In this document: positions 23,464-41,990 of the stretch, piece by piece
Layout: the number at the start of each line of letters is the position of its first letter
Numbering within the stretch: the stretch's first letter is position 1
Assembly: GCF_024298765.1 (NCBI RefSeq)
Contig: NZ_CP101210.1
DNA: 64,000 nt
Strand: one strand, 5' to 3'
Origin: Escherichia coli
GTDB lineage: Bacteria > Pseudomonadota > Gammaproteobacteria > Enterobacterales > Enterobacteriaceae
Notes under the pieces: generated by a model
The model's input: the letters and a program-made list of their open reading frames with translations, nothing else
Told to the model about the DNA's origin: nothing
Databases searched by the model: none
Made by a program: the position numbers and the translations under genes

Positions 23464-24918
23464 ATGATGGAGAGCATTAATAATCAAGTGCAGTCGGTAC
23501 GCCAGTTGCTGGCCATTCCCCAACTGGCCATCCCAAGCTATCAGCGACCTTACCGCTGGGGCTCCAAGAATATCTCGGATCTCTTTACCGATTTGGCAAC
23601 CCATCAGGACAAGAGCGCCTACCGGCTGGGCTCGGTGGTGTTTCATCAGCACACCGATAGTGAGCAGGGCGAAATGCTTGATATCGTCGATGGTCAGCAA
23701 CGCACCCTGACCCTGATGTTGACCGTCAAGGCGCTGATCGAGGTGCTGGATAACGAAAATCGCAGTGGCAAAGAGAAGAGTATCCGGTTTCAACGTCAGG
23801 ATCTGCGTGAGCAATTGCAGGTCTTGCGTGGACCTATCGATGCGTTTATGCAGCGCCAGCGCTTCCCCAGCCGGGATTCGGAGTTCAACCTCAGACGTAA
23901 CTATCTGGAGTTGCGTCGGCTGGTGGCCCGCCCTGAGTTTGACGAGCAGCAAATTGACTTTCTGCTCAACCGCTGTCAGGTGGTCTGCTTTGTACTGCAG
24001 GATATCTCGGAGGCGTTCCAGTTCTTCGATTCGCAAAATGCCCGGGGGCGCGATCTGGCTCCTCACGATCTGCTCAAGGCATTTCACCTGCGCGAGTTTG
24101 CCGGTCATGAGGCCAATCTCAAGGCCGAGGCGGTCGCCCATTGGGAGCGCCTGCCAAGCGACGAGCTGGCCAATCTGTTCGCCCTCTATCTCTATCGGGT
24201 ACGCCAGTGGGCCGAGGGCAAGTCGGCCCGCTACTTTGGCAAGGGGGAGGTGGATCTCTTCAAGGGGGTCAACCTAGATCGGGTAGGGCATTATCCTTAC
24301 GTGGAGTCGCTGCGCATCGCCCACCACTTTGTCGATGAGTACAACAGCCAGTACCAGCGCAAGATTGACGGCCAGTACATGACGTTTCCCTTTCATCTCG
24401 ACCAGATGATCATCAATGGTCGGCGCTTTTTCGAGATGGCCGAGTACTACCAGACGCGGGTGGCCGCCATCGTGGCCGAGGAGTCTGATTCCGGCAAGGC
24501 GCAATCTGCCACCCTGCTCGGCGAAACGCTGACACCGATGGCCAGCAAGGTGCTATCGACCCTGGGCAGCTACGAGCGTCGCCACCGCACCGGGGATCGT
24601 TATGTGCGGGCCATGTTCGACTGCGCCCTGATCTTCTATATCGACAAGTTCGGCAGCCAAGGGCTGTCACTGGCCATCGAGAAGTGCTTTATCTGGGCCT
24701 ATCGCTGCCGCATCCGCCAGCAGGTAGTGCAGTTGGCAACCATGGATAACTATGTGCTGGAGCACAATCTGATCCGTGCCATTCGTGATGCTCGTCTGCC
24801 GGGAGATCTGCACGGCTTCCCTTTGCCTAGCATGAGCAGTCGAGAGAACAAGAACAATCGCAATGGTGCCGAAGATGAGCTGGTCGGGCTGTTTCGGGAG
24901 ATGAAATATTATGAATGA
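23464..24918 (+). CDS. DUF262 (ParB/GmrS-like NTPase) domain protein without a recognisable nuclease domain
   Basis: 484 aa. [69 protein letters not shown] at 23456-23461. 8-nt overlap with the next gene. Confidence 0.8.
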
Positions 24919-26953
24919 TGCAGGCGTTCGCCCCTTTTCCATTCGTGCACTGCTTGAAGATCGCGCCCGCTATCTGGTGCCCATGTACCAGCGCAACTAT
25001 GCCTGGGGTGAGGGAGAGATCACCCAGCTGCTGCAGGATGTGCTGGATTATCAGCAAAAATTGGTCAGTGGTAAGGGGCCGCAAACCTACTATATCGGCA
25101 CCCTGGTGGTGTTTGCCCGGGACGATGGCAGTTTCGAGGTAATCGATGGCCAGCAGCGCTTTACTACCCTCTCTCTGCTGGCCAATTGGCTCAAACATCA
25201 CGCGATAGATTCGGTGGATATGAGCTGGTATCAGACCATCAACCTCGCTTTTGAGAGTCGCCCGATATCGAGCCATACCTTCGAGCGCTTATGGCAGGGG
25301 GTTGCCCCCGACGATTTGCGGGGGAGTACCTTCAATGAAGGTTTGGTGAACGGTTTTGAGCTGATTGGCAAGGCAATGGCGGAGCTTGGTTTGGTAGGGG
25401 CTAAACTGACGGCCTTTTGCGACTACCTCTTCAAGCATGTGCAGATCTCTCGTATCGAAGTACCCAAGGATACCGATCTCAATCACTTCTTCGAGGCGAT
25501 GAACAATCGCGGCGAGCAGTTGGAAAAGCATGAAGTGATCAAGGCGCGGCTGATGGAGACGCTGAACCAGATACCCGAGGAAGAGCATCGTCGCCAAAGT
25601 ATTCATATCCTGACCCGGGTATGGGATGCCTGCGCCAATATGGAGCGCTATATCCAGTACGGCTTTACCCCGCAAGAGCGCCACCGTCTGTTTGGTGAGA
25701 GCGACTGGGGTCAGTTTGTGCCCCGTGATTTTGCCCATCTGCTTGATCTGCTAGGATCCCCAAACACGGCCGACGCTGCCGATAAAAGCCGTGCAGCTGC
25801 CGGTAGCCAAGGGCGCACCTTGTTGGCCATTTTGCAGGATGACAAGCTTGATGGTGAGCAGACGGTGGAGGAGGAGAGCGCAGGCTCCGAGCGCTTTAAC
25901 AGCGTCATCAACTTCTCCAACTTCTTGCTCCATGTGCTGCGACTCGTGAGCCGCGACCCGGGTAATACGGAGGGGGTGCCGCTTGATGATAAACAACTGG
26001 TCGATCAGTTTGAGCTGCGAGTGATAAGGCAACCGGATCCAGTAGCGGCAGTTCAGCGTTTTATCTATGGCCTGTTAAAGAGCAAGTATCTGTTTGATCA
26101 GTTCATCATCAAGCGCGAGTTTGCCGATGGCAAGGATAGTTGGAGTCTGAAGCGGCTGCACTGGTATTCGGAAAAGAGCGTCAGTTACATCAATACCTTT
26201 GACAAGGATGAAAATGAGAATGGTTTCTCTGGTGTTAACCGGCGGGTCCTGATGTTGCTGTCGGCGTTTCATGTGTCGACCCCGACCCTGGTTTACAAAC
26301 ATTGGCTGAATGGTGCACTGAGATATCTGTTCGACAATTGTCACCCTGATCAACCGGTGGATGCCGGGGCTTATCTGTCCTATCTGGAGAGTCAGGCTCG
26401 CCGCTTTGTCTTCCAGCGCTTTTTAGCGCCTGGTGAAGGGGCTTCCTATTACCAGATGCTCTACCTTGATAACGCCCTGTTGCCCGCCATCAATGTGGAT
26501 GAGAGTTGGCACAAGGTGATTACATCCAAACTTCGCTTCGGTCATATCGAGAACAACTTTGTCTTCAACTTCCTCGACTATCTGCTGTGGGTACGAGATC
26601 GGAATAGCGACAAAGTTGCTGGCTCCTTTGAGTTCACTTTCCGCAGCTCGGTGGAGCACTTCTCACCCCAGCATCCGATGGATGGCTATAAACCGGTTGA
26701 GCAGAGTGCACTCCATTCGTTTGGCAACCTTTGCCTTATCAGCCACAGCAAGAACTCGCGCTTGAGTAACTTCCAGCCGCAACAGAAGCAGGAGCACTTT
26801 GAAGCAAGCCTTGCCAATAACCAGACTGATAGTCTTAAATTGCTTGCTATGATTCGGCTGATGAAAGATAAAGGTCGTTGGCTGGAAGATGAGATAGCTG
26901 TGCATCAACAAGATATGTTGCAGGTCTTACTATCCAATCAAATTCAGCAATAA
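24911..26953 (+). CDS. DUF262-DUF1524 fusion (GmrSD/BrxU/SspE-like type IV restriction enzyme family)
   Basis: 680 aa. N-terminal [59 protein letters not shown]-terminal His-Me-like [10 protein letters not shown]...[17 protein letters not shown]. Confidence 0.85.
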
Positions 26954-28509: not shown

Positions 28510-28896
28510 ATGAATAAACCAGCAGATCTGAAACCCCGCAACTTATCGGCTGCTGTCAGATTGCGCCTAAATGAAATCGAGAACTGGCTGGACAGAGGGC
28601 TAACGCGGCATGAAATTGCTGAAATCCTCGACAGCGAATACAGCTTTTCGGTAACAGCCAAAGGGCTTGAGATGGCACTGTATAGAACGCGGCAAAACCG
28701 AAAAAATGTATTGCACAATACACATGATAAGAGTAGCGCGAAGGGTGCAGCGGAAAGTGTATTGCACAATACACAACCGTCTGAGCCTGAAGCGCAGGAA
28801 AGTGAAAAAGCAGAGAGTCCCGGCATTATTGATAAAGAATTCTTCAATAAAATCGGTGAGAATTTCGACCCTAAGAAGTTCAACAAAAAATTCTGA
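28510..28896 (+). CDS. Small HTH DNA-binding protein (StbA/ParB-adaptor-like position), function unknown
   Basis: 128 aa. Probable HTH LTRHEIAEILDSEYSFSVTAKGLEMALYR, acidic/low-complexity tail. Strong RBS, and iterons immediately upstream. Confidence 0.6.
   Translation: MNKPADLKPRNLSAAVRLRLNEIENWLDRGLTRHEIAEILDSEYSFSVTAKGLEMALYRTRQNRKNVLHNTHDKSSAKGAAESVLHNTQPSEPEAQESEKAESPGIIDKEFFNKIGENFDPKKFNKKF
28707..28773. repeat. Two copies, 51 bp apart, of the 16-bp near-palindrome TGTATTG-CA-CAATACA inside the 128-aa gene
   Basis: 28707-28722 and 28758-28773. The wider direct repeat is aa(a/g)tgtattgcacaatacaca, which encodes the NVLHNTH / SVLHNTQ protein repeat. Confidence 0.85.
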
Positions 28897-28904
28897 GGTG
28901 ATTT

Positions 28905-29091
28905 ATGAAAGTAGCGGTAATTAATTACAGTGGCAGTGTTCGTAAAACCTTAATTTCATCTTACCTGTTAGCTCCGCGCCTGACTGGTGCAAAGTTCTAT
29001 GCGGTAGAGACTATCAACCAGTCTGCTTCCGATCTGGGTATTGAAAATGTGACCAGTTTTAAAGGTGACGACTTCTCACGTTTGATTGAGG
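28905..29091 (+). pseudogene. N-terminal stub of a ParA/StbB-like partition ATPase, truncated at an IS1 end
   Basis: MKVAVINYSGSVRKTLISSYLLAPRL... resembles the deviant Walker A start of small ParA/StbB proteins, but reads GSVRKT where GKT is expected. The frame ends where the IS1 terminal repeat begins (29092). Confidence 0.45.
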
Positions 29092-29122
29092 GGTAATGAC
29101 TCCAACTTACTGGTAGTGTTTT
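29092..29122 (-). mobile_element. Solo IS1 terminal inverted repeat (about 31 bp remnant)
   Basis: ggtaatgactccaacttactggtagtgtttt compared with the reverse complement of the IS1 right end, ggtaatgactccaacttattgatagtgtttt (2 mismatches). No IS1 sequence follows. Confidence 0.75.
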
Positions 29123-29173
29123 AGCGAAGTTAAGTGACACAATAGTTTAATCTGGAGGAATTAATGAAGAGTT

Positions 29174-32113
29174 ATGAGTAATTTTAATTTTCTAACAGAC
29201 ATCAGCCCTGAACTCGCTCAATTTGGTAAAAGTGCCGAGCTGTATTACCATGATGATAAGCAGGTAGCACTAGTGAAACTTAGGTGTTTTACTGAAGTAG
29301 TCGTTGGGGAAATTTATTCACGTTTATCGCTAACCCCACCTGTTCGTGATGATTTATATAATCGACTGCGCAGCTACGAATTCAAGGACGTTGTCAGTGA
29401 TAAGGGAATCTGGGCCAAATTAGATGTATTGCGACATAAAGGTAACAAAGCCGCCCACTCTAGCAATGGTTCAGACGAGATTTCCCTCAATGAAACACTC
29501 TGGTTAATCAAAGAAGCTTATTTAGTCGCCCGTTGGTATGCTCAAGCTATTCTCAATAAGCCTATCACTCCGCCAGAGTTTGTTGATCCGGTAAAACCTA
29601 TCGATCATACATCTCGCTTAGAAGCAGAGTTAGAACGGCAACGTCAAGAACTCAATAAACGAGAGGCTGAATTAAAGACCCAGCTTGCTGATAATAGTGA
29701 TAAATATCAACAACAGACGAGTGAGCTAATAGCTCAACTAGACGAAAAAAACGACACACTTTCCAATGTAAAAAAAGAGCAAGCACTATTACAGATTGAA
29801 CTTGAACAAAAACAAAAAGATCTAGTCGCTTCACAACAAGCCTTCTTTGATTACAGGACGCGTGAAGAGTTTAAACAAGCTAGTATTTCATCAGCTTCAA
29901 GCTTTGATCTTGATATGGAAGTGACGCGCCGAAATATTGATATATTTGATTGCTTTGAAGGAGTAAGTTTAACTAAAGGTCAAAACCAAATAGTTAAGCA
30001 AATAAATGAGTTTCTAACCGATACCAAACAAAACGTATTTTTACTTAATGGTTATGCAGGTACAGGTAAAACATTTATAACTAAAGGAATTACTCAGTAC
30101 CTAGAAAGAATTGGTCGTGAATTCGCTATTATGGCCCCGACGGGGAAAGCCGCGAAAGTGATATCAGACAAAACAATGCAACCTGCCAGCACTATTCACC
30201 GCGTGATATACAATTACGACAACGTGAAAGAGTACAAAGTTGACGGTGTGGAAGGGTCTGAAACTTATCGTTGCTATGCTGACCTTAAAGTCAATGTAGA
30301 TACTGCCGAAGCTGTTTATATAATTGATGAAGCGTCAATGGTTTCTGACAGATATTCCGATGGTGAGTTTTTTCGTTTTGGGAGCGGATATTTATTAAAA
30401 GACTTGCTCAAGTACATAAATATTGACCACAACGATCATAATAAGAAAGTTATTTTTATTGGTGATAATGCACAGTTGCCACCTGTTGGAATGAATACGT
30501 CACCAGCGCTAGATGCCAGTTACCTTAAAGAAAATTATCAAGTCGCTGTGGCTTCAGGGCACTTGACTGAAGTTGTTCGTCAAAAAGGTGATAGTGGTGT
30601 TTTGAACAATGCTGCCATGTTGCGTGACGGTTTAGAGCAAAATCTTTTCAATAAACTGAAATTTGAAGTTAATGATCATGATGTATTTAATTTGTCCTCG
30701 GAAAATCTACTTAGCACTTATCTAGACTCATGTGATAGAAAAGTTAGCCGTACAGGAGAAAGTATTATTATTGCTTCTTCAAACCGACAAGTAGCTGAGT
30801 ATAACCGTTTGGTTAGAGAGTACTTCTTTACTGGTCAACAGCAAATGGTCGCGGGAGATAAAGTCATTTCGGTAGCAAATCACTATCGAGCAGACGCTTG
30901 TATTACCAATGGTGAATTTGGAATGATCAAGGAAGTACTATCTCCTCATTCTGAGTTGATTAGTGTTGACATTAGCGTCAAAGGTGACACTGGTGACATG
31001 GTTAAGCGAAAAGTAAATCTGAGTTTTAGGGATGTGATTCTAGGCTTTCGCAACGACTACGGTGAACCATTCTTCTTTGAAGCCAAAATTGTAGAAAACC
31101 TACTTTACAATGATCAGCCGACCTTATCGTCAGATGAGCACAAAGCACTCTATGTTCACTTTTTAAATCGACACCCAGAACTGAGACGTAAAGGTAATGA
31201 ACAAAAGCTTAGAATTGCATTATTGCAAGATCCTTATTTCAATGCTTTTAAACTTAAGTTTGGTTATTCCATTACTGGACACAAAGCACAGGGTAGCGAA
31301 TGGAAAACTGTTTTCTTACAGTGTCAAACACACCAAAAAGCCTTAACTAAAGATTACTTCCGCTGGTTATACACCGCTATAACGAGAACTTCTGGCATCC
31401 TGTATGTAATGAATCCACCTCAGTTGCGCTTAGGAGATGGAATGAAAATAGCAGGAGCGTACCAACCCAAAGCAGTAAACCTAGACAATTCTGCTCCTGA
31501 AGGCGTTGAGGTTGTGCGACCAAGTACCGAAGCAACGAACTCAGTAGCCACAGCGAAGTTTGATTTTCAGACTGACATCCCGCAACTTAAAAAGCTATAC
31601 CAACTTGTTGATGCATGTATTGAAGGTACAGGGATTACTGTAGTGGATGTCCTTCATTATAACTATCAAGATCGTTACATCTTGCAGCGCGGGAATGAGC
31701 AGGCTTCGATAAGTTTCAATTACAAGGGTAACTGGAAAGTGTCTGGCGTAAAGAGCATTACTCAAGATGGGTTCGATGTTGAACTCATGGCTTTGCTTGG
31801 TCAATTAGAAGGTACTTTGCTCGATGTACCTGAGCCTTCAAAGGATACTCAGTTCCATTTTTCAGAGCCATTCTTAGAAGAGTTTTATCTAAATGTAATG
31901 GATCAAATCAACAGTGTTGGAGCTGATATAAGCAAAATTGAATCTCGTTCATTTTGTGAAAGATATGCATTTGTTAAAGGCAATGAGTTGGCGGTAATTG
32001 AGTTTTGGTACAACAAGTCTAGCCAGTTTACTAAAGTTCAACCTATGCCTCAGCTTAGTAATTCCACAAGGCTCATTGACGAAATAATATGTCAAATAGG
32101 TGTGCTTCTATGA
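29174..32113 (+). CDS. Multidomain SF1B (RecD/Dda/TraA-like) helicase: DUF4145-like N-domain, coiled coil, helicase core, two tandem C-terminal repeats
   Basis: 979 aa.
- N-terminus ...KLDVLRHKGNKAAHS (DUF4145-like).
- aa ~145-235 heptad-rich (LEAELERQRQELNKREAELKTQL...).
- Walker A GYAGTGKT (nt 30050-30073), APTGKAA, Walker B YIIDEASM, IGDNAQLPPVG, TEVVRQ, C-terminal GYSITGHKAQGSEW and YTAITRT.
- aa 794-891 and 892-979 are related repeats. Confidence 0.85.
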   Translation: MSNFNFLTDISPELAQFGKSAELYYHDDKQVALVKLRCFTEVVVGEIYSRLSLTPPVRDDLYNRLRSYEFKDVVSDKGIWAKLDVLRHKGNKAAHSSNGSDEISLNETLWLIKEAYLVARWYAQAILNKPITPPEFVDPVKPIDHTSRLEAELERQRQELNKREAELKTQLADNSDKYQQQTSELIAQLDEKNDTLSNVKKEQALLQIELEQKQKDLVASQQAFFDYRTREEFKQASISSASSFDLDMEVTRRNIDIFDCFEGVSLTKGQNQIVKQINEFLTDTKQNVFLLNGYAGTGKTFITKGITQYLERIGREFAIMAPTGKAAKVISDKTMQPASTIHRVIYNYDNVKEYKVDGVEGSETYRCYADLKVNVDTAEAVYIIDEASMVSDRYSDGEFFRFGSGYLLKDLLKYINIDHNDHNKKVIFIGDNAQLPPVGMNTSPALDASYLKENYQVAVASGHLTEVVRQKGDSGVLNNAAMLRDGLEQNLFNKLKFEVNDHDVFNLSSENLLSTYLDSCDRKVSRTGESIIIASSNRQVAEYNRLVREYFFTGQQQMVAGDKVISVANHYRADACITNGEFGMIKEVLSPHSELISVDISVKGDTGDMVKRKVNLSFRDVILGFRNDYGEPFFFEAKIVENLLYNDQPTLSSDEHKALYVHFLNRHPELRRKGNEQKLRIALLQDPYFNAFKLKFGYSITGHKAQGSEWKTVFLQCQTHQKALTKDYFRWLYTAITRTSGILYVMNPPQLRLGDGMKIAGAYQPKAVNLDNSAPEGVEVVRPSTEATNSVATAKFDFQTDIPQLKKLYQLVDACIEGTGITVVDVLHYNYQDRYILQRGNEQASISFNYKGNWKVSGVKSITQDGFDVELMALLGQLEGTLLDVPEPSKDTQFHFSEPFLEEFYLNVMDQINSVGADISKIESRSFCERYAFVKGNELAVIEFWYNKSSQFTKVQPMPQLSNSTRLIDEIICQIGVLL

Positions 32114-33534
32114 ATGAGCCAGCTAATCGTACAGTAAATAATTTGAGAAAGAGCGGAGACCTGCAAGGGGCTTGGGAGTTTGGTTTTCAAGCGTTGCAGG
32201 CAGCTCCCCAAGATACTTACTTGAAAGGTGCTTTATTTTGGGTGTGTTATGAGTTTCTTAAGCACCAGCTTGAAAATCTAAATAAGCGAGCGAGTTCTTC
32301 AAACAACTATCGTCCTACTGATTTTGAATTTGAGCAAATAGAGAACTTGCTGCAAACCATAGTAAATTTAGATATTGCTACTGGCGGCCTAGAGTACAAA
32401 ATGCTGCTGGTTCAGTTTAAGAAGAGTTTGGAATGGTTTCCAACCTTGATTCACCTTGTGCTTCGACATCAAACTGTACTATTTGATGATGAGGCTAAAA
32501 CACCTTTTCAAGCTGAAAAAGGTGAAGTGCCAAGTTTGATGCTCTCAACAGCACGCCAAGTGGCGAGTGCATGGCTTAGAGCACGAGAGTATTGGCATCT
32601 AGATCTTAACCAAGTGATGGCATTTATTAACCAAACACGCGAGCAAGCCTCTGACACTAAACATATGATGTGGCTTGATTACGACCAAGCGAAGTGCCTT
32701 GTTGTTGCGGGCCAATACGATCAGGCTCGCGAACTCATTCTACCCATTTTAAGAAAGAAGCAAAAAGAGTCTTGGGCTTGGGGAGCGTTGGCTGCTACTT
32801 ATTCAAAACAAGATCAGCGTTTAGCAATGAAGTTTTTTGCTAGGGGAATAGTATCCGCACATGACGTTACTTTTAGTTTACGTTTATTACAGGGAATTAT
32901 TCCTTTATTACTTGCAAATCAACAGCAAGCTGAAGCCTCAATGTGCCTAAAAACGGCTATTGCGGCTTATCAAGCCCATGGGTGGAAGCTAAAGCAAGAG
33001 CTAGAACAGCTATCTATGCAGGCTTGGTATGATTCTGGTGTCGATGAGAAGCAACTGAGTCCTTTTTTAAACTCTATTTCTCACGACGCTTTAAATTACT
33101 TGCATGGGCCGATGGAGAAGGTTGTTGCTATCGTAGAGAATATCCATAAATCCGGTAAAGGCTTTCAAGTATTCGTAAATAAGTCGACATCACTATCAGT
33201 TCGCATGGGGGTTCATAAAGGTAAGCAGAAACCTCAGGCTGGTGACTATGTCGAGCTATCCGTAGCGAGTGTTGATGGAAACAAAGAAGTAGTAGCTTCC
33301 TCATCGTCCAAGCAAGTAGATATGGCTGATGTTTCGTATGTAGAGGGTACGCTTCGAATAGCACCCAAAGGCTTCGGATTTGTCGAGGATACTTTTGTTC
33401 CTCCCTTTGTTATAGGTAATTTAAAAAATGAAACAAAAGTCAGAGCACTCCGTATCATGAGTTGGGACAAATCTAAAGCTCGCCACAACTGGAAAGCGAT
33501 TAAGTTAACGGAACTAAATTTTAATGAAGACTAA
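32110..33534 (+). CDS. Helical-repeat (TPR-like) protein with C-terminal cold-shock/OB-like module; partner of the helicase
   Basis: Start taken at ATG 32110 (MNEPANR), forming an ATGA overlap with the helicase stop; the track start is 32089. The alpha-helical N-terminal 330 aa includes TPR-like segments (DYDQAKCLVVAGQYDQARELILPIL, WAWGALAATYSKQDQRLAMKFFARGI). C-terminus has ...KSGKGFQVFV... and ...LRIAPKGFGFVEDTFVPPFVI... (RNP1-like KGFGF). Confidence 0.75.
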   Translation: MNEPANRTVNNLRKSGDLQGAWEFGFQALQAAPQDTYLKGALFWVCYEFLKHQLENLNKRASSSNNYRPTDFEFEQIENLLQTIVNLDIATGGLEYKMLLVQFKKSLEWFPTLIHLVLRHQTVLFDDEAKTPFQAEKGEVPSLMLSTARQVASAWLRAREYWHLDLNQVMAFINQTREQASDTKHMMWLDYDQAKCLVVAGQYDQARELILPILRKKQKESWAWGALAATYSKQDQRLAMKFFARGIVSAHDVTFSLRLLQGIIPLLLANQQQAEASMCLKTAIAAYQAHGWKLKQELEQLSMQAWYDSGVDEKQLSPFLNSISHDALNYLHGPMEKVVAIVENIHKSGKGFQVFVNKSTSLSVRMGVHKGKQKPQAGDYVELSVASVDGNKEVVASSSSKQVDMADVSYVEGTLRIAPKGFGFVEDTFVPPFVIGNLKNETKVRALRIMSWDKSKARHNWKAIKLTELNFNED

Positions 33535-33591
33535 GTCACTTTCCGGCGAAATCGAGTTAGGACAGGCTCAAGAATTAGCCGAGGTCGAATA

Positions 33592-33688
33592 ATGGCAACC
33601 CGAGTAGAAATGATTATCGAAACGCTCAAGGCGAACCCCGACAAGAAGTTTACTGCTCGGGACTTAGCCAAAGAATTTGTGCTTCGAT
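33592..33688 (+). pseudogene. First 32 codons of a third operon gene (winged-helix/HARE-HTH-like N-terminus), truncated by IS903
   Basis: MATRVEMIIETLKANPDKKFTARDLAKEFVLR|IS903. GAGG RBS upstream. The pattern resembles N-terminal HTH modules of McrB-like and other restriction-associated ATPases (weak, short). Confidence 0.5.
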
Positions 33689-35282: not shown

Positions 35283-35846
35283 TCAGTTATGTCGTGGTCG
35301 GCCGCGGTTACTTTTTTCGGGAAGCCTGCTACGGCCCAGAATAATACCGTGTTCTTTCTGATCTTGTTTAGCCAGATAGCTAAGGGCGTAACGTAAGTCG
35401 TCTACCGCAGACTTATCACTATAGTGAATCACGTGATCGATACGCACCGGGTATTTATCTTTAGCCCGGCACAGGTGAAAATAACCCTCCCCTTCCGTGA
35501 TCCGCCTCCAGATATCCCCCAGTTGCCTGGATATCTGATAAGAGTTCTTGTGACGTTGCCCATCCAGATAGCCGATAAAATGAATATGAAGCCCTTTGTC
35601 TGGTGTATATTCCATAACCCAGTAATATCCTGCCAACATCGTCTGGGTTTCGCTAAGTAAACGGTATATTTCCATACACATACTGTGCTTACAGGAATGC
35701 CCGAAACTGGGCGTGTCTTTCCTGTAGGCAAAATCAATTCTGAAAGGTAACAGTTTAGAAAAACGTTGAAACAATCCCTCCATGTGTTCATTCACATCTT
35801 TCAGAATCGCGAAATTCATTTCGTAATTGGGATTGGCATTATACAT
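35283..35846 (-). CDS. YagK/YfjJ-family protein (inovirus Gp2-type domain) of CP4-type islands
   Basis: 187 aa, ...YYWVMEYTPDKGLHIHFIGYLDGQRH...HVIHYSDKSAVDDLRYALSYLAKQ. Position downstream of the yfjI-like gene as in CP4-57. Confidence 0.8.
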   Translation of the reverse strand: MYNANPNYEMNFAILKDVNEHMEGLFQRFSKLLPFRIDFAYRKDTPSFGHSCKHSMCMEIYRLLSETQTMLAGYYWVMEYTPDKGLHIHFIGYLDGQRHKNSYQISRQLGDIWRRITEGEGYFHLCRAKDKYPVRIDHVIHYSDKSAVDDLRYALSYLAKQDQKEHGIILGRSRLPEKSNRGRPRHN

Positions 35847-36735
35847 TTTATAGTCCTTACTTTATAAAATTCACAGGAAGAGGGAATTACGTAAATACTG
35901 AGAGTACATAAACGCCGTACCACGGCATTAATAAACGAGGTAACCAGCAGTACAGACAACCTGATAAAACTGTTTTGTATTACCGCATCGCTGTAACAAG
36001 GTAATACTTCAGAATTCAGTGAGGCTCTCTTAAACAGAGGACCAGTAATAATTACAATGGCAAAAACACACCTCAATATAATTGAATTTAAGAAAGCACC
36101 ATTCAATCACTTACAGGAAGTAATCTGATCTTCACAAAAGTCAGCTATCGAATAGCCACAGGCAACACCGCTATTGATACCCCACACACCATAAGAAGAT
36201 TATTCCATACAGAAAAAATTATATTTACCCATACTTATAAACTGTAACGGAGCTATGACGTACGAACTAAAGACACTACACTCTAATAGAGTTCTGGTAC
36301 CTAACCAGTGTTAAATACGAACCAGACATACATTCTATGGATTAATTTTCTCAATATTACGCTATGAGTGTAGTAACATAATTTACACCACATACACCAC
36401 CACACTGTAGTTAGTATATGGGGAGACATTACGATAAAAAGAGATAAGTTATACCACAGATACCACCACACAATACCATAACTCCCATTAATAATACTAA
36501 TTAACCTAAATTATTTATTGAATACGAAAACAATGAAGGTCCCACCTCACCTCAGACTAAAGCCGACAATATCCTGAGCAACACTCTATCCAATAGTAAA
36601 TAGTGGTTACACCAGTTATATTTACTGACTGACCTGTACCAGAGTTTTCTAATACAACAACGCTGACATGGTAAAGGCATTAGTCTCCTCCGCAAGTAGC
36701 AGAGGAGACTATATGTTACTCAACGATTAAGTCGT

Positions 36736-38187
36736 TCAGAGGTCAAAGTTAGGTGCGACACACAACGTTTTTCCCTCAATAACCGGTACAACTCTGTTTT
36801 GTTCATACAGTAAATCCAGTAACCAGTTGATTTTATCCTTTTTCCGGAAACGGTTCGGACCACGCTGTAAAATATCATTTTTTTTCATACAGGGGATCCC
36901 CTTCTCAATGCAATAGCTTTTTATCCAGTTGAAAAGTTCAAGCTCCTCTGGAATGAGTCGCACAGGTACGGTCAGGGCAGGGTTGTCAAAAGTTAACGGA
37001 TTAGACAACCGCACATACTCATTACCGTACCATATTGCTAATTCTCTCGCCATTTCTGCAGTGTAAGGGGAAATGTCCCCCTCTTCACCGCTCGAATGGT
37101 GAATAAGTCCTGCCAGTCTTGCCATATACTCTGCATTTTTAGCAGCATATTCCCGGCAATGTCTTAAAGGCCCCAATCCCCCCAGCTTCGATTCCACATC
37201 GTTGTAATAATCCGTCCAGATTCTGGCAGCCTGAGGAGAAAAGTGAAGGCAACGTCGTTCACCACTCATCGCCAGATTTTCATCAATAAGCTCATTGATC
37301 CTCTGTTCAAACAAATCCTGATACTGTGATGAATAATTATCTCCGGTTATTATCCTTGTCCCCTGCGTTGATGTTGGTTGACACATCAAAAACCTTGCAT
37401 GATGTCCTGACGTTTTCACAAGTTCTTTTTTTCGCGTACAAAAACCTTTCTGGTAAACATCAGGCTGAATCATCACCGATACCGTCAGTCTTGGATCCTT
37501 CAAAATAATTCCGGGAGATGATTTCCTGTCGATGAAAAGAGAACCACCATCCCACAAAGAGTTAAGTATTCCAAGTTTACTCATTGCCCGGCCATCAAAA
37601 ATTATTCCTCCTTCACTGGATACAAGAGCAAAAGAGCGATTGCTGTCGGAATAATATTTTAACATTCCCTCTATCGTTGTCTCATTGAAAATTGTCCGGC
37701 GTATCTGCGGCGGAACAGGACATTTATTCAGATGTCTTTTAAGCTCTGACTCTGTTGCCTTACAATCTTTACCGGCGCGAATTTCTTTATGCAATTTTGA
37801 CTCCAGTGCTTTTTGCTTTTGCTCCCATATTTCCTTTTCTGTACTGTAATTCTCAACCAGTTTCGCGTATTCTTCCGCCAGGGCTTCATCCCTGAGATAA
37901 AATGCTTTCATAAACACTTTATCCACGGTCGTTTTCCTTTCACCGGAATCAGCCAGAATCAGAGAGTAAAGATTAACAGGCCCACGTAAATTTCCAGGTC
38001 TGCACACGTCAATCTGATTCTGACAGGCACTTGAGAACGCTGTTAATGCGGATGTCGCCACCATAGCCAAAGGTGCCTGTGTATTTTTTTGAGTTTCAAT
38101 TATTGCATTTCTCACCAGCGGTGGTAGTGCATATACCGGATAAGGATTTTCTGGTGCAAGTAAGCACATAAAAGCCTCTCTTTTCAT
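36736..38187 (-). CDS. YfjI-like DUF3987 protein
   Basis: 483-aa track ORF; the true start is possibly MCLLAPENPYPVY at 38169. Order alpA - yfjI - yfjJ as in K-12 CP4-57. Confidence 0.8.
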   Translation of the reverse strand: MKREAFMCLLAPENPYPVYALPPLVRNAIIETQKNTQAPLAMVATSALTAFSSACQNQIDVCRPGNLRGPVNLYSLILADSGERKTTVDKVFMKAFYLRDEALAEEYAKLVENYSTEKEIWEQKQKALESKLHKEIRAGKDCKATESELKRHLNKCPVPPQIRRTIFNETTIEGMLKYYSDSNRSFALVSSEGGIIFDGRAMSKLGILNSLWDGGSLFIDRKSSPGIILKDPRLTVSVMIQPDVYQKGFCTRKKELVKTSGHHARFLMCQPTSTQGTRIITGDNYSSQYQDLFEQRINELIDENLAMSGERRCLHFSPQAARIWTDYYNDVESKLGGLGPLRHCREYAAKNAEYMARLAGLIHHSSGEEGDISPYTAEMARELAIWYGNEYVRLSNPLTFDNPALTVPVRLIPEELELFNWIKSYCIEKGIPCMKKNDILQRGPNRFRKKDKINWLLDLLYEQNRVVPVIEGKTLCVAPNFDL

Positions 38188-38417
38188 TAATGGGTTAGTA
38201 AAGCAGCAGCAACTCCCGCTATAATAGCGAAATAGCTGCTGTTCAGACCTAATGTTCTGAGAAATACAGAATATCTGTAGATCTGATGTTTAATAAACCG
38301 ATAAGGTTAATTCAGTTCATACTGTGTTATTTACCACGAAATATCATTCATGTTTCTCATTCTTAACACCTCCTAAAATTATTTCACTAACACCTTCCCC
38401 CCGGTCTTTTTCCTTTC

Positions 38418-38645
38418 TCAGGAATCAGCCAGAACCATAGTGTAAATATTAACAGGCCCACGTAAATTTCCAGGTCTGCACACGTCAATCTGATTCTGAC
38501 AGGCAATTGACATCGCTGTTAATAATGATGTGGTAGTCATAGCCAGAGATGCTTTTTCATTGTGTTGAGTTTCAATTATTGCATTTCCAGTCATTGATGG
38601 TTGCGCATATACTGGATACGGAGTATCCGGTTTGATGTAAGACAT
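38418..38645 (-). pseudogene. Duplicated 5' fragment (75 codons) of a yfjI-like gene
   Basis: MSYIKPDTPYPVYAQPSMTGNAIIETQHNEKASLAMTTTSLLTAMSIACQNQIDVCRPGNLRGPVNIYTMVLADS parallels residues about 7-82 of the 36736..38187 protein. The stretch acaggcccacgtaaatttccaggtctgcacacgtcaatctgattctgacaggca is shared at nucleotide level. Confidence 0.8.
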
Positions 38646-38750
38646 AAATATTTCCTTTTTTCGTAATAACTTTCGGTTATAGCAGCTATTTCCGCTACAA
38701 TAGCAACAATAGCTGCTATACAGACTGGATATACTGAAAATACAGACAGT

Positions 38751-38999
38751 TCATCTGGTCTGTATCCAGCAAAGAAGGTCACTTAACAACCATCCGCAAG
38801 ATTTCTTTCCGATAGACTTACGTGGTGGAAATTTTCCCTCCCGTTCAAGTTTCCACGCTTGTGTACGAGAAATTGACGTGATCTCATATCGTTCCTTTTC
38901 ACGTACCAGTCTGTCGCATTCAATCCCATAAGCTTTCAAAATGACCAGACGCTGTTCATCTGTTAATGGAAGCCACATACTACCCTCCTGATATATCAA
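38751..38999 (-). CDS. AlpA-family (prophage CP4-57 regulatory) DNA-binding protein
   Basis: ...LVREKERYEITSISRTQAWKLEREGKFPPRKSIGKKSCGWLLSDLLCWIQ fits the AlpA pattern (HTH, FP..., W....W). Start uncertain (38999 or 38978). Confidence 0.7.
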   Translation of the reverse strand: MIYQEGSMWLPLTDEQRLVILKAYGIECDRLVREKERYEITSISRTQAWKLEREGKFPPRKSIGKKSCGWLLSDLLCWIQTR

Positions 39000-39254
39000 T
39001 ACTTTTTATTTCCGGCATGAGCATGAAATGACTAAGTTTCCCGGATAAACAATGAGTGAAAGTCACTATCATTCATCCAGTCAACGCCTTGCAAATAAAA
39101 TGTAATACTATGATTTTTATAGGTCAAAATACTAAATTACAATGTTAAAATGGCTTTTAACAGAAAAAATAAAGACATATGGAACCAAATAAAAACAAGC
39201 CACGACCAATAAAAACAAAAGATTAATATTAAAAATCCATTATGACGATTTTTG

Positions 39255-39283
39255 TTGACTAAAATTAGGTTGGGATATATAAA
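39255..39283 (+). promoter_or_regulatory. Near-consensus sigma70 promoter candidate with a downstream palindrome
   Basis: TTGACT (39255-39260), 17 bp, TATAAA (39278-39283). Palindrome tttgtgat-aatc-atcacaaa at 39349-39368. About 390 bp upstream of the 545-aa ORF. Confidence 0.3.
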
Positions 39284-39669
39284 TAAATCCATGTAAAATT
39301 CAAACAAGGCATAGAGGAGCCGCAGGAAGGTGAAATATTTCCATCTAATTTGTGATAATCATCACAAAAATAAGCTACAACAAGCGGAGGAAAAGACAAT
39401 CTGTTGCTGAACAGACAGAAGCAGGCTACGAATGATCGGAAAATGAAGCAAATACGCTTATACAGAAGACGCAGAGGTAACTGACGGAGACAATCACAAT
39501 CAGGAGAAAATTATCGTAAATAATGTATAAAATCTCAGGATATAAACAAATGTACACAAGCTATCCACGTAATCAGCGGCTGGCTCAGGATTGACGTTTC
39601 ATTTCAGTGGACAACATCGATTCTGTCTGACAGCGGACCAATATGTAGCAAGCAGAAACTTCTGACATC

Positions 39670-41307
39670 ATGGTAACTCGGACAATGCAACAAAAGTATC
39701 AGTATGATCGTGTTTTATCCGGCGAACTCCACCCATTCCCTGGCATATACGAGGCGGTTTCCGAACAAATCCTTTTGCTCATTTTTAAAGCACGTCAACT
39801 ATATCAGGATCCAGAATATCGCCCCTGGTTTGAAGAACAGCACAGAGTACTCTCTGCATTACGTGCCAATACAGAGCTCCTGAGAATCTTTAGAGAACAA
39901 AGAAGCGCTGAAGAACCAAAGCTTACTATTGAAGAGTCTACCTCCCCCCAACCCACTCCTTCTGCTCTTACAGATGCGCTTAATGTGATGTGCCATTTAT
40001 ACAATGGTTTTGATGAAGGAAATATCAGTCTGAAAACCTGGGGGGCGATGCAAGAGGTACAGACAACATCAACCTTTATCAGCCCAGGACCGAGAACCTG
40101 GAAAACACCTGAACTGGCAAAGTTTGTAGGAGATGATTTATTTAATATTCTGACTGAATGTAAGGCCTGGAGTTCACCAATTCCAGCAGAAACCCGACAG
40201 GGGTATTGCCATCAGGATCTGTCTGTTGCACACTCCTGCACCTCAGAGTTACTGGCACACCTGAATCAATATCATGAAATTGATGAATCAGCAATACTTG
40301 CCAGAGTTATTGGTATAACAGTTAACGGATTCTACAAGAAAAATAATACAGACCTTCCAGAATGGCTATCCCCCTTTAAAGAGGAACATAAAATATTCAA
40401 AGATTGTCCGGAGCAAAATACCGGGGATGTAATCAGACGGAAAGAACAACTGTTGAAAACAGGACGTACAGAATTCGTGAATAATTTGTGTCGGGTCGCC
40501 AACTGGTATGAAATTGAGTCAATATACGATGAATACGTCCGTCTTTATGCCAATGAAATCATTGACTGGTTCAACAAAACCATGAAGTATTTTAAACCAA
40601 CAGATTTTATCCGATATACATGGAAATTCGCAACAGTTACTCCGGATAAAGATACAGAAACCGGGCATACAACTGCATGGGAAAAGGATTATTGCCAGAT
40701 AACCATACAACGTGATGAACTTCTGAGGTTGATTCACACTAATACCCTTCAGGATGCTGTAATTTATCTTTGTCATTGTCTGCAGGAGAAATACAAGAAA
40801 TCATCCCAGAATGAGACAGAGTTTCCAGGAATAAAACCTCCGGCATCAGAGAGTGAAATTAATATAACAGATAATTTTGAATTTCATTCTCTTCTGGAGC
40901 TAAGTAAAGATAATGAGAAGCGGCTGGAAACATTTCAAAAATGGTATGAAAAAAATAAAGTTTTGTTAGAAAGTCATAAACAAAAACGAACAGAGAAGAT
41001 TGACGTTGCCGTACGACTTGTAGGGCTGAAAGCCTATGATCTGCATGAAGGGATTCCGGATAGTCCAAAACGAAAAGTTAAAGATGGCATAAATGAAGAC
41101 ATCAAAGCCGATACCAGTTTACGCCTGTCAAAGACAAATATAAGTGATACGTCGCTAAACCGTTATCGCCGCACTGTTAAGGAGATTATCAATAACGAAA
41201 TCGACGCATTCCTGTTGGAACAGAAGAAAAAAAATAAAAGATTTCCCTACAGTGAAGATAGAGATGTGATTCGCCCTTTATGGGGAAAATGCCTGACCGG
41301 GCAGTAG
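39670..41307 (+). CDS. Hypothetical protein, 545 aa, no family recognised
   Basis: Long uninterrupted ORF in AT-rich DNA, with a good terminator downstream. Basic C-terminal tail (LLEQKKKNKRFPY). Confidence 0.6.
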   Translation: MVTRTMQQKYQYDRVLSGELHPFPGIYEAVSEQILLLIFKARQLYQDPEYRPWFEEQHRVLSALRANTELLRIFREQRSAEEPKLTIEESTSPQPTPSALTDALNVMCHLYNGFDEGNISLKTWGAMQEVQTTSTFISPGPRTWKTPELAKFVGDDLFNILTECKAWSSPIPAETRQGYCHQDLSVAHSCTSELLAHLNQYHEIDESAILARVIGITVNGFYKKNNTDLPEWLSPFKEEHKIFKDCPEQNTGDVIRRKEQLLKTGRTEFVNNLCRVANWYEIESIYDEYVRLYANEIIDWFNKTMKYFKPTDFIRYTWKFATVTPDKDTETGHTTAWEKDYCQITIQRDELLRLIHTNTLQDAVIYLCHCLQEKYKKSSQNETEFPGIKPPASESEINITDNFEFHSLLELSKDNEKRLETFQKWYEKNKVLLESHKQKRTEKIDVAVRLVGLKAYDLHEGIPDSPKRKVKDGINEDIKADTSLRLSKTNISDTSLNRYRRTVKEIINNEIDAFLLEQKKKNKRFPYSEDRDVIRPLWGKCLTGQ

Positions 41308-41316
41308 ATCACAGAT

Positions 41317-41350
41317 GGGATAACATCCCGGTTATCCCCTGTTTGTTCTG
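41317..41350 (+). terminator. Rho-independent terminator after the 545-aa ORF
   Basis: gggataac-atcccg-gttatccc stem-loop (41317-41338), then ctgtttgttctg. Confidence 0.6.
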
Positions 41351-41393
41351 CTTCAGGTTGCCGGAGCTCCAGGAACACGAGGCAATCGGCAAA

Positions 41394-41990
41394 TTATGCG
41401 GCTTTTCCATTAACAGATTCGGCCACAAGAACAACACCGTGTTTGTTTCGATCAGGATGTTCACTCCAGATTTCTGATTCAGGAATACTTTCCCCATCAT
41501 AGCAGATCCGATCACCATCAAACGAATAATACCGTGCGGAATCTGTATCTAAGATAAACACCTTAAAATTCGTTGAACGACGCGCTATATGCTGCCAGAG
41601 GGCTTTACCTCCTTCATATTGCTCGTTATCACTTAATAGTATAACGCCTGCTTTTGTGGCTATTGTTTCATAAACAAACGTAGCAAGGCTAACATCACGT
41701 ACAGCGCCATCGACAACAATCCCTTCAATCTGAGCAACGTCCTGTTCTTCCCAGAATTTCCGGACAAACACCCCTTCAAGCTGTGAACGACGCTGAAGCT
41801 CCAGAGTGGCAACAACCTTATGGCGAATATCACCATCAATAACAGAAGGTGCAGCTTCGATTACCGCAGCGAACGGAGTCTTTGGATCCCAGATGATCTG
41901 GTAAAGCACACCCTGAATAGTTACTCCATCCAGTATCGAAAAACGACGAGCTACAGTAGCAGGGGAGTAAGACATTGGAATGACAGCCAT
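41394..41990 (-). CDS. Hypothetical protein, 198 aa, first gene next to thrW
   Basis: Track ORF MAVIPMSYSPATVARRFSILDG...; no motif recognised. Occupies the position where a tRNA-linked island normally carries its integrase. Confidence 0.55.
   Translation of the reverse strand: MAVIPMSYSPATVARRFSILDGVTIQGVLYQIIWDPKTPFAAVIEAAPSVIDGDIRHKVVATLELQRRSQLEGVFVRKFWEEQDVAQIEGIVVDGAVRDVSLATFVYETIATKAGVILLSDNEQYEGGKALWQHIARRSTNFKVFILDTDSARYYSFDGDRICYDGESIPESEIWSEHPDRNKHGVVLVAESVNGKAA

What the first reader, a model, noticed from the sequence alone, without database searches (positions are those of the whole stretch)
31553..32110. Tandem duplicated ~90-aa domain of unknown family at the helicase C-terminus
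Residues 794-891 and 892-979 of gene A align to each other:
- KFDFQTDIPQLKKLYQLVDACIEGTGITVVDVLHYNYQDRYILQRGNEQASISFNYKGNWKV...
- QFHFSEPFLEEFYLNVMDQINSVGADISKIESRSFCERYAFVKGNELAVIEFWYNKSSQFTKV...

The shared pattern is F-x-F ... Y ... I ... G ... [DE]RY-x-[LF]-x-[RK]-GNE-x-A-x-I-x-F-x-Y. It looks like a small alpha/beta module present twice after the helicase core. I do not recognise it. It could be the sensor or effector-coupling part of the protein.
Basis: seen in the sequence. Interest (0 to 1): 0.5.

Follow-up and report, generated by a model that had tools for sequence, protein, structure and literature searches.

The report
Twin TBP-like domains on defence helicase
The repeated ~80-residue module at the end of this helicase is real, but it is already catalogued as the "TBP-TOTE" domain (Pfam PF22721), which marks a two-gene predicted anti-phage system that has never been tested experimentally.

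Summary
Residues 794-979 of the 979-aa protein (window 29174-32113, +) contain an internal duplication. The two halves align at BLASTP E=7e-7, z=8.9 against shuffles, and family profiles of the two repeats align at E=3.6e-18.

The family is not unknown. Both copies match Pfam PF22721, "TBP-TOTE" (146 bits, cutoff 27). AlphaFold2 gives a confident helix / four-strand sheet / helix fold for each copy (pLDDT 90.8). The only solved structure that matches across both copies is the TBP1-TBP2 tandem of the RnlA (RNase LS) toxin. 14 of 22 diverse homologues also hit Pfam RnlA_toxin_N.

A disordered linker ties the tandem to an intact RecD2/Dda-like SF1B helicase that has an N-terminal DUF4145 and a coiled coil. 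The next gene overlaps it by 4 nt and encodes a TPR(DUF7017)-S1/CSD protein. This pairing holds in at least 71 of 80 loci across many phyla. The pair is a TOTE system (TPR, OB, TBP, Effector), listed in PADLOC as the untested candidate PDC-M16.

The most likely role is nucleic-acid recognition and/or docking to the partner, but this is an inference. The acidic charge of the tandem keeps a protein-docking role open.

Verdict: already known as a family, functionally untested, moderate-to-low interest.

The parts
29174..32113 (+). Gene A, 979 aa: DUF4145, coiled coil, SF1B helicase, linker, two TBP-TOTE domains. RefSeq annotates it as 'AAA family ATPase'.
   Evidence: ORF. Pfam domains. PADLOC PDC-M16A at E=0, 1348 bits. 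RefSeq annotation.
29174..29554 (+). N-terminal helical DUF4145 domain (aa 1-127).
   Evidence: Pfam PF13643 at E 5e-6 to 5e-7. NCBIfam PRK11448 (type I restriction endonuclease) matches aa 1-256, E 2.4e-28, far below that model's cutoff. All-helical in the AF2 model.
29609..29899 (+). Two long helices (aa 146-190 and 198-242), read as a coiled-coil hairpin.
   Evidence: Secondary structure of the full-length AF2 model, pLDDT 47-76. The hairpin packing was not inspected.
29966..31411 (+). SF1B (RecD2/Dda/Pif1-like) helicase core (aa 265-746) with intact motifs.
   Evidence: Pfam AAA_30, AAA_19, PIF1 and UvrD_C_2, plus weak SH3_13. PDB sequence hits to RecD2 3e1s and Dda 3upu. Invariant G296-T300 (Walker A), D385-E386, Q434, R738 across 43 homologues.
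31421..31579 (+). Variable, disordered linker (aa 750-802) that tethers the tandem to the helicase.
   Evidence: pLDDT about 30 for aa 769-794 in the full-length model. No consensus residues across homologues.
31580..31807 (+). TBP-TOTE repeat 1 (aa 803-878): helix, four antiparallel strands, helix.
   Evidence: Pfam PF22721 stretch 803-877. AF2 elements H803-816, E822-829, E832-839, E842-850, E855-861, H866-878. Conserved H828, Y831, Q832, E833, Y835, Y850.
31808..31867 (+). Connector between the repeats (aa 879-898).
   Evidence: Lower pLDDT (about 70-73) and variable sequence.
31868..32098 (+). TBP-TOTE repeat 2 (aa 899-975), same topology. It is the better conserved of the two.
   Evidence: Second PF22721 stretch. 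AF2 elements H899-915, E918-925, E928-935, E938-946, E952-957, H965-975. Conserved R930, Y931, F933, A940, V941, Y946, N947, F952. Mean identity between proteins is 0.30 for repeat 2 and 0.245 for repeat 1.
32110..33534 (+). Gene B, 474 aa from the ATG that overlaps the gene A stop codon (ATGA): TPR/DUF7017 plus S1/CSD OB domain(s). RefSeq annotates it as 'tetratricopeptide repeat protein'.
   Evidence: Sequence at the junction. RefSeq start. Pfam DUF7017 at E 3.5e-40 and S1CSD-TOTE-2 at E 3.6e-18. Weak S1CSD-TOTE-1 at E 0.044. PADLOC PDC-M16B at E 1.8e-251.
29150..33688 (+). The imported two-gene cassette, low in GC.
   Evidence: 97.2% DNA identity over 4539 bp to a Shewanella chilikensis contig, L007. 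GC is 0.39 against about 0.50 in the flanks.

Best explanation
The C-terminal 186 residues are two copies of the Pfam domain TBP-TOTE (PF22721). This is an ancient tandem duplication of a TBP-like lobe (helix, four-stranded antiparallel sheet, helix). It is homologous to the TBP1/TBP2 lobes at the N-terminus of the RnlA (RNase LS) toxin.

The tandem hangs on a disordered linker of about 50 residues, behind an intact RecD2/Dda-type SF1B helicase that also carries an N-terminal DUF4145 and a coiled coil. The gene is translationally coupled to a TPR(DUF7017)-S1/CSD gene. Together the two genes form a TOTE system (TPR, OB, TBP, Effector), which PADLOC lists as candidate PDC-M16. It is a predicted anti-phage or conflict system carried by mobile DNA.

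Shown here: the duplication, the family assignment, the fold, the link to RnlA, the conserved gene pair, and the location in defence islands and on mobile elements.

Inferred: the tandem is the substrate-recognition or adapter module. It would bind a structured or duplex nucleic acid (RNA or an RNA:DNA hybrid) through the conserved aromatic residues at the strand-loop junctions (Y831 and Y850 in repeat 1; W/F927 and Y946 in repeat 2). It would do this together with the basic OB domains of the partner, and would direct or license the ATP-driven helicase against the invader's nucleic acid.

My confidence in the identity part is about 0.95. My confidence in the nucleic-acid-recognition role is about 0.5.
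For: Family and fold:
- PF22721 matches twice, 146.5 bits against a cutoff of 27.
- Repeat-to-repeat statistics support the duplication.
- The AF2 model has pLDDT 90.8 and shows H-E4-H twice. The fold persists in the full-length model behind a linker of pLDDT about 30.

Link to RnlA:
- In Foldseek against the PDB, RnlA chains are the only E<=0.001 match and the only probability ~1.0 matches, and they span both repeats (187-192 columns).
- In BFVD a phage 'RNaseLS-like protein' is the only named match at probability 1.00.
- 14 of 22 diverse homologues hit Pfam RnlA_toxin_N, best E 6.7e-7.
- The RnlA lobes are TBP-like, and TBP1 is required for RNA substrate binding (PMC8266594).
- TBP lobes of RNase H3 and RnlA carry a conserved loop Tyr (position L5.1). 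In RNase H3 it contacts the minor groove (PMC7221094). Here, Tyr at the end of strand 3 is 99% conserved in repeat 1 and 95% in repeat 2.

Gene pair and context:
- The partner gene has DUF7017/TPR and S1CSD-TOTE domains, and its OB region has pI 9.5.
- A partner lies immediately downstream in at least 71 of 80 loci from many phyla, typically with a 1- or 4-nt overlap. Six more loci have a divergent partner in that position, only one of which was shown to be TPR-like by Pfam.
- PADLOC PDC-M16A/B match at E=0 and 1.8e-251.
- The TOTE definition comes from PMC12458937.
- Context: next to BREX in Pseudomonas and next to a YprA/MZB helicase in Vibrio. In the window itself there is a type I RM system and two GmrSD-like genes.
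- Helicase motifs are invariant.
Against: - No experiment on any TOTE or PDC-M16 system was found. PDCs are explicitly 'untested' candidates.
- The tandem is acidic: pI about 4.7 for each repeat here, and a family median of 5.8. That is unlike the basic DNA-binding face of TBP.
- The solvent-exposed face of the sheet is rather variable. Most conserved strand residues alternate in a way that suggests they face the core (my reading).
- Canonical TBP and RNase H3 do not appear among the top structural matches. No Pfam TBP hit occurs in any of the 22 homologues.
- The equivalence of Y831/Y850 to TBP's DNA-contacting aromatic residues is inferred from topology. It was not checked by superposition.
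- The primary TOTE paper could not be read.
Confidence: 0.6

Rival explanations
1. The tandem is mainly a protein-protein module rather than a nucleic-acid binder. It would dock the helicase onto the TPR-OB partner. It could also act as an acidic decoy that occupies the partner's basic OB domains, or the helicase's own nucleic-acid channel, until an invader signal displaces it. In this reading it is effector coupling or autoinhibition.
For: - Both repeats carry net negative charge, and the family median pI is 5.8, while the partner's OB region has pI 9.5.
- A long disordered tether is typical of a module that docks in trans or in cis.
- The two genes show strict co-inheritance and translational coupling.
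- TPR arrays usually bind protein ligands (general knowledge).
- Stand-alone TBPx2 genes directly followed by the TPR gene exist (L005).
Against: - The closest homologue with data, RnlA TBP1, is needed for RNA substrate binding.
- Conserved loop tyrosines match the nucleic-acid-contacting position of other TBP-like lobes.
- No interaction prediction or co-evolution analysis could be run.
- The two roles are not mutually exclusive.
Confidence: 0.3
2. The tandem is a KA1-like or other small-ligand or membrane-binding regulatory domain. It would localise or gate the helicase and would be unrelated to nucleic-acid recognition.
Against: - These matches score lower than RnlA and cover one repeat only.
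- Sequence profiles link the domain to RnlA_toxin_N, not to KA1.
- KA1 binds acidic phospholipids through basic patches (general knowledge), whereas this module is acidic.
Confidence: 0.04
3. The apparent duplication is a chance or compositional similarity, or the module belongs to a truly undescribed family.
For: Pairwise identity is only 27% over 67 residues. No solved structure is found by sequence or profile search.
Against: - z=8.9, with none of 2000 shuffles reaching the score.
- Profile-profile E=3.6e-18.
- Curated Pfam family PF22721 matches twice.
- The predicted topology is identical in both copies.
- The tandem is present in all 22 diverse homologues tested.
Confidence: 0.01

Closest known systems
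Pfam PF22721 TBP-TOTE, within TOTE (TPR, OB, TBP, Effector) conflict systems (Aravind, Iyer & Burroughs 2022, as cited in PMC12458937)
   Same: Both repeats match the model far above threshold. The neighbouring gene carries the other TOTE Pfam domains (DUF7017/TPR, S1CSD-TOTE-2, weak S1CSD-TOTE-1). The gene pair is conserved across phyla.
   Different: Nothing defining differs. Here the 'effector' is an SF1B helicase fused to the TBP tandem, whereas TOTE systems are said often to include RNase H domains. No RNase H, HEPN or other nuclease domain was detected in either gene.
PADLOC phage defence candidate PDC-M16 (A and B components)
   Same: Gene A matches PDC-M16A at E=0 (1348 bits, full length). 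Gene B matches PDC-M16B at E=1.8e-251.
   Different: None. PDCs are predictions by 'guilt by embedding' in BREX, DISARM or type I RM loci and are explicitly untested.
RnlA / RNase LS toxin (PDB 4i8o, 6y2p-6y2s): N-terminal TBP1-TBP2 tandem followed by a HEPN RNase
   Different: The tandem is C-terminal here and N-terminal in RnlA. It is fused to a helicase rather than a HEPN RNase. There is no RnlB-like antitoxin. The inter-lobe geometry differs (rmsd 7.6 A over 187 columns, TM about 0.5).
Canonical TATA-box-binding protein (two pseudo-symmetric lobes) and the single TBP-like lobe of RNase HIII
   Same: Same lobe topology (helix, antiparallel sheet, helix). Two lobes in tandem, as in TBP. A conserved aromatic residue sits at the strand 4 / loop 5 junction.
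RecD2 / Dda / Pif1 SF1B helicases and their accessory domains (SH3, 1B pin, N-terminal domains)
   Same: The motor core and the weak SH3_13 insert resemble RecD2 and Dda.
   Different: The C-terminal tandem has no counterpart in the RecD2 or Dda structures, which match only the motor region by sequence. So it is not a standard RecD/TraA accessory domain.

Membership tests
Pfam PF22721 (TBP-TOTE) | The sequence scores above the curated gathering threshold. | tested here: met
   146.5 bits for aa 794-979 (140.2 for the whole protein) against a cutoff of 27, in two stretches. 22 of 22 diverse homologues match.
Pfam PF22721 (TBP-TOTE) | TBP-like fold: a helix, a four-stranded antiparallel sheet, a helix. 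| tested here: met
   AF2 pLDDT 90.8 with H-E4-H twice. The best structural matches are the TBP-like lobes of RnlA, which are described as TBP-like in PMC8266594. Direct similarity to TBP itself was not recovered.
TOTE conflict system (TPR, OB, TBP, Effector) | A TPR-containing component. | tested here: met
   Gene B matches DUF7017 at E 3.5e-40, plus TPR_19 and TPR_14.
TOTE conflict system (TPR, OB, TBP, Effector) | OB-fold (S1/CSD-like) domain(s). | tested here: met
   S1CSD-TOTE-2 at E 3.6e-18. S1CSD-TOTE-1 is only weak, E 0.044.
TOTE conflict system (TPR, OB, TBP, Effector) | A TBP-like domain encoded in the same operon. | tested here: met
   The tandem sits at the C-terminus of gene A, which overlaps gene B by 4 nt. 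The gene pair recurs in at least 71 of 80 loci.
TOTE conflict system (TPR, OB, TBP, Effector) | An effector component. | tested here: inconclusive
   The only enzymatic domain in the cassette is the SF1B helicase, and no nuclease domain was found. The primary paper listing accepted effectors could not be read. A secondary source mentions RNase H domains as frequent.
TOTE conflict system / PADLOC PDC-M16 | Actual protection against phages or other invaders. | not testable with these tools
   PDCs are described as untested. No experimental paper was found.
PADLOC PDC-M16 | Both component HMMs match adjacent genes. | tested here: met
   PDC-M16A at E=0 and PDC-M16B at E 1.8e-251, in adjacent overlapping genes.
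RnlA / RNase LS toxin family | A HEPN ribonuclease domain following the TBP1-TBP2 tandem, with an RnlB/Dmd-type antitoxin partner. | tested here: not met
   No HEPN or RnlA catalytic-domain hit in gene A or gene B. The tandem is C-terminal to a helicase. Only the TBP-like lobes are shared.
Canonical TBP (Pfam PF00352) | A match to the TBP profile, and a basic saddle formed by two lobes. | tested here: not met
Standard accessory domains of RecD/TraA helicases | The C-terminal module is shared with characterised RecD2, Dda or TraA proteins. | tested here: not met
   PDB sequence matches to RecD2 3e1s and Dda 3upu are confined to the motor region. NCBIfam RecD2, RecD and TraA scores are far below their cutoffs. 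The C-terminal fragment has no PDB sequence or profile hit.

The most novel reading that the evidence does not exclude
The acidic, flexibly tethered TBP-like tandem is not a nucleic-acid binder. It is a nucleic-acid mimic, or decoy, that keeps the system switched off. It would occupy the basic S1/CSD OB domains of the TPR partner, or the helicase's own nucleic-acid channel, until phage RNA or a phage protein displaces it and releases the helicase. That would be a new regulatory use of the TBP fold in immunity.
Probability: 0.12. Interest if true: 0.6.

Novelty: already known. Interest (0 to 1): 0.3.

Why it matters
The domain and the system are catalogued (Pfam PF22721, the TOTE description, PADLOC PDC-M16), but I found no experimental study of them.

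This copy sits in E. coli and Klebsiella chromosomes and plasmids: 53 of 5426 complete E. coli genomes and 52 near-identical plasmid copies. That makes it a convenient, genetically tractable representative. It could be used to test whether TOTE systems defend against phages or plasmids, and what the TBP-like tandem recognises.

It also adds a widespread bacterial protein with two TBP-like lobes in tandem. This bears on accounts of TBP origins that describe the bacterial homologues they found as lacking two-lobe sequences (PMC7221094).

As a finding about an 'unknown domain', it is resolved: the family is known.

Tried and rejected
- Sequence (phmmer) and profile (hmmsearch) searches of the C-terminal tandem against all PDB chains gave only noise.
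- The AlphaFold-database fold library (afdb50) was not available. Fusion partners were instead surveyed by sequence.
- The search for related loci with the tandem-only alignment failed for lack of a conserved 7-10-residue stretch. The helicase-anchored alignment A1 was used instead, which biases the 80 loci toward helicase-fused versions.
- The primary TOTE paper (Annu Rev Biomed Data Sci 2022) is not held, by DOI or by PubMed id. Literature searches for PDC-M16, DUF4145+TPR, TPR-CSD, DUF7017 and TBP-TOTE found only one secondary mention.
- No homologue exists in 50,697 phage records.
- There is no DNA-level repeat and no Rfam family in or around the region.
- The promoter/terminator scan was no better than shuffles.
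- Two ORFs flanking the cassette in Shewanella (260 aa and 309 aa) were checked as possible third components. They are not conserved in any other locus.
- Some 'stand-alone' short hits are fragments of helicase genes from short metagenome contigs, so only a few can be taken as true stand-alone TBP tandems.
Full report
**1. Observation**

Gene A is the ORF at window 29174..32113 (+), 979 aa. The two halves align by BLASTP at 27% identity over 67 ungapped residues, E=7e-7. A Smith-Waterman score of 62 compares with 23.9 +/- 4.3 for 2000 shuffles, so z=8.9 and no shuffle reached the score. Profiles of repeat 1 and repeat 2, built from 115 homologues, align with hhalign at probability 99%, E=3.6e-18, over 77 columns. 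The duplication is therefore real.

It is also old. Among 33 diverse proteins, a repeat's nearest neighbour is the same-position repeat of another protein in 64 of 66 cases. Mean identity between repeat 1 and repeat 2 (0.20) is lower than repeat 1 to repeat 1 (0.245) or repeat 2 to repeat 2 (0.30) across proteins. No DNA-level repeat remains.

**2. What it is**

Both copies match Pfam PF22721, [quoted passage not shown], at 146.5 bits against a cutoff of 27, in two stretches.

AlphaFold2 on aa 794-979 with 44 aligned sequences gives pLDDT 90.8 and pTM 0.71. Each repeat is a helix, four antiparallel strands, and a helix. In the full-length model (pLDDT 80.6) the same fold appears at aa 803-878 and 899-975. 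It lies behind a linker whose pLDDT falls to about 30 (aa 769-794).

The structural searches point to RnlA:
- In Foldseek against the PDB, RnlA chains are the only match at E<=0.001 and the only ones at probability ~1.0, and they span both repeats (187-192 columns, TM about 0.5).
- In the viral library a phage "RNaseLS-like protein" is the only named match at probability 1.00; three endornavirus-type polyprotein entries also have E<=0.001 but TM of only about 0.25.

At sequence level, 14 of 22 diverse homologues also hit Pfam RnlA_toxin_N, best E 6.7e-7. The two N-terminal domains of RnlA were described as TBP-like (TBP1, TBP2), and TBP1 is required for RNA substrate binding (PMC8266594). No solved structure is detectable by sequence or profile search. 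Canonical TBP and RNase H3 do not appear among the top fold matches.

**3. The rest of the protein and its partner**

Gene A has these parts:
- An N-terminal helical DUF4145.
- Two long helices (aa 146-242), read as a coiled-coil hairpin.
- A RecD2/Dda/Pif1-type SF1B helicase core, with Walker A, Walker B, motif III and motif VI residues invariant across 43 homologues.
- The disordered linker.
- The TBP-TOTE tandem.

Gene B starts at the ATG at 32110, which overlaps the gene A stop codon (ATGA). This agrees with RefSeq. It encodes DUF7017/TPR repeats, S1CSD-TOTE-2, and a weak S1CSD-TOTE-1.

PADLOC models PDC-M16A and PDC-M16B match the two genes at E=0 and 1.8e-251. PDCs are "phage defence candidates" predicted from embedding in BREX, DISARM or type I RM loci, and are explicitly untested (bioRxiv 10.1101/2024.01.29.577857). 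TOTE stands for TPR, OB, TBP, Effector (Aravind, Iyer & Burroughs 2022, as cited in PMC12458937). I could not obtain the primary paper.

**4. Relatives elsewhere**

- Gene A has 1687 homologues at E<=1e-5 among the 8000 candidates scored, and nearly all of the 120 listed carry PF22721.
- An exhaustive search with the tandem alone finds 276 cluster representatives at 50% identity. They fall into proteins of about 700 aa (helicase without DUF4145), about 920-980 aa (with DUF4145), and short proteins.
- Many short hits are gene fragments. Some look like true variants. P0216 is DUF4145 plus the tandem with no helicase. L005 carries a stand-alone tandem directly followed by a TPR gene.
- Of 80 genomic loci, my partner HMM finds the TPR-S1/CSD gene immediately downstream in 63. 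Eight more cases are artefacts of longest-ORF start calls. Six loci have a divergent partner of about 450-480 aa in the same position, and one locus is too short to tell. Only one of three such partners scanned was shown to be TPR-like, by a weak DUF7017 hit. Overlaps of 1 or 4 nt are typical.
- These loci come from Gamma-, Beta- and Alphaproteobacteria, Campylobacterota, Bacteroidota, Chloroflexota, Actinomycetota, Clostridia and one DPANN MAG.
- In two loci the TPR gene is separated from the helicase gene by an extra gene. In one of them (L081) the extra gene carries CSD domains.
- The set is biased toward helicase-fused forms, because the search patterns came from the helicase.
- Neighbourhoods include BREX (PglZ, BrxL) in Pseudomonas veronii and a YprA/MZB-type helicase in Vibrio chaetopteri.

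**5. This copy**

The cassette (window 29150-33688) is 97.2% identical in DNA to a Shewanella chilikensis contig. Its GC content is 39% against about 50% in the flanks. It lies between IS1 with a plasmid-type stbA and a 63-aa ORF on one side, and IS903B on the other.

The window itself matches an E. coli chromosomal island next to tRNA-Thr and proA-proB. That island also carries a type I RM system and two DUF262/GmrSD-like genes. The cassette occurs in 53 of 5426 complete E. coli genomes, 29 times on chromosomes and 24 times on plasmids. There are 52 near-identical plasmid copies, mainly in Klebsiella and Escherichia. None occurs in phage records.

**6. How it probably works**

Shown: a conserved, translationally coupled pair in which one protein combines a motor with a tethered TBP-like tandem, and the other combines a TPR scaffold with basic OB folds.

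Inferred: the OB domains and the TBP-like tandem are the recognition parts, and the SF1B helicase is the ATP-driven effector.

For a nucleic-acid-recognition role of the tandem:
- Homology to RnlA TBP1.
- Near-invariant aromatic residues at the strand-loop junctions of each repeat: Y831 and Y850 in repeat 1, W/F/Y927 and Y946 in repeat 2.
- By topology these residues occupy the places of the loop-3 / strand-3 and L5.1 aromatics that contact the minor groove in TBP and RNase H3 (PMC7221094). This equivalence is my inference and was not verified by superposition.

Against that role:
- The tandem is acidic, with pI about 4.7 per repeat and a family median of 5.8. The partner's OB region has pI 9.5.
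- The exposed face of the sheet is comparatively variable.

These points, together with the long flexible tether, keep open a rival. In that rival the tandem mainly docks onto the partner, or acts as an autoinhibitory decoy. The two roles could coexist.

**7. Comparison and verdict**

The module is a member of PF22721 and the operon meets the T, O and T criteria of TOTE. The "effector" criterion is only inferred, because the sole enzymatic domain is a helicase and no nuclease was detected. It is not an RnlA toxin (no HEPN domain), not a canonical TBP (no profile match, acidic), and not a standard RecD/TraA accessory domain.

The structural guess (a small alpha/beta module present twice) is right. 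"Unknown family" is wrong. "Sensor or effector-coupling part" remains a reasonable, untested idea.

Novelty is "already known" at the level of family and system. What is missing is any experiment. Interest is moderate-to-low (0.3). It is raised slightly because this copy sits in tractable E. coli and Klebsiella replicons, and because of the unexplained acidic character of a domain that is named after a DNA-binding protein.

Noticed in passing
window 32089-32113: The mechanical ORF list starts gene B at 32089. The likely start is the ATG at 32110, which overlaps the gene A stop codon (ATGA). RefSeq annotates it this way. Overlaps of 1 or 4 nt are typical in the 80 related loci, which suggests translational coupling.
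   Followed up: yes
window 29150-33688 compared with L007 4598-9136: The two-gene cassette is 97.2% identical in DNA to a Shewanella chilikensis contig. Its GC content is 39% against about 50% in the flanks. This points to a recent import from marine Gammaproteobacteria. The homology begins 24 nt before gene A and ends near the IS903B boundary.
   Followed up: yes
window 28510-29096: A plasmid-type stbA (NCBIfam StbA_2, 205.7 bits) and a 63-aa ORF with no Pfam hit sit directly upstream of the cassette, inside what is a chromosomal island in the best-matching E. coli record. The same stbA-cassette junction is found on many plasmids, so the block has moved between plasmids and chromosomes. The 63-aa ORF may be a remnant of a truncated partition gene. 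That is my reading and was not tested.
   Followed up: partly
window 23464-26953: Two adjacent DUF262/GmrSD-like genes: GmrSD_N + DUF7834, and GmrSD_N + GmrSD_C. They probably form a type IV restriction-like defence pair, just upstream of the IS1 that borders the stbA/TOTE block.
   Followed up: partly
window 3790-9807: A complete type I restriction-modification operon (HsdM, HsdS, HsdR). Together with the GmrSD-like pair and the TOTE cassette, it makes this island defence-rich.
   Followed up: partly
window about 35283-44900; L087: The window matches an E. coli chromosome island beside tRNA-Thr and proA-proB. The island contains inovirus-Gp2/YfjJ-type and YfjI/DUF3987 genes and several IS elements (IS1, IS903B). 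A YagK_YfjJ_C-type (inovirus Gp2-like) gene also lies downstream of the TOTE pair in Pseudomonas veronii (L003).
   Followed up: partly
aa 794-979 of gene A (window 31553-32110) and homologues: The 'TATA-binding-like' tandem is acidic: pI about 4.7 per repeat here, and a family median of 5.8 over 220 sequences. The OB region of the partner protein is basic (pI 9.5). This is unexpected for a presumed nucleic-acid-binding module and remains unexplained.
   Followed up: partly
L081 7542-11263; L076 7564-9476: These are variant operons in which the TPR gene is separated from the helicase gene. L081 has an 805-aa protein with cold-shock domains followed by a separate 446-aa TPR/DUF7017 protein. L076 has an extra 192-aa ORF with no Pfam hit before the TPR protein.
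   Followed up: partly
P0216 (L006 642-1712); L005 176-697; P0201: Architectures without a helicase exist. P0216 is DUF4145 plus the TBP tandem (356 aa). L005 has an apparently stand-alone tandem directly followed by a TPR gene. P0201 (457 aa) has the tandem after an N-terminal region with only a weak methyltransferase-like hit. All come from short metagenome contigs, so their completeness is uncertain.
   Followed up: partly
L056 (MAG labelled Candidatus ainarchaeum, 5.1 kb contig): A homologue of the tandem-bearing gene, with a divergent partner gene (no Pfam hit) directly downstream, lies on a contig binned to a DPANN archaeon. This could be horizontal transfer or a binning error.
   Followed up: no
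L007 3834-4616 and 9040-9969: In Shewanella the cassette is flanked by two uncharacterised ORFs (260 aa, ending 5 nt before gene A, and 309 aa) and by transposases. Neither ORF has a homologue in the other 79 loci, so they are probably not part of the system.
   Followed up: yes
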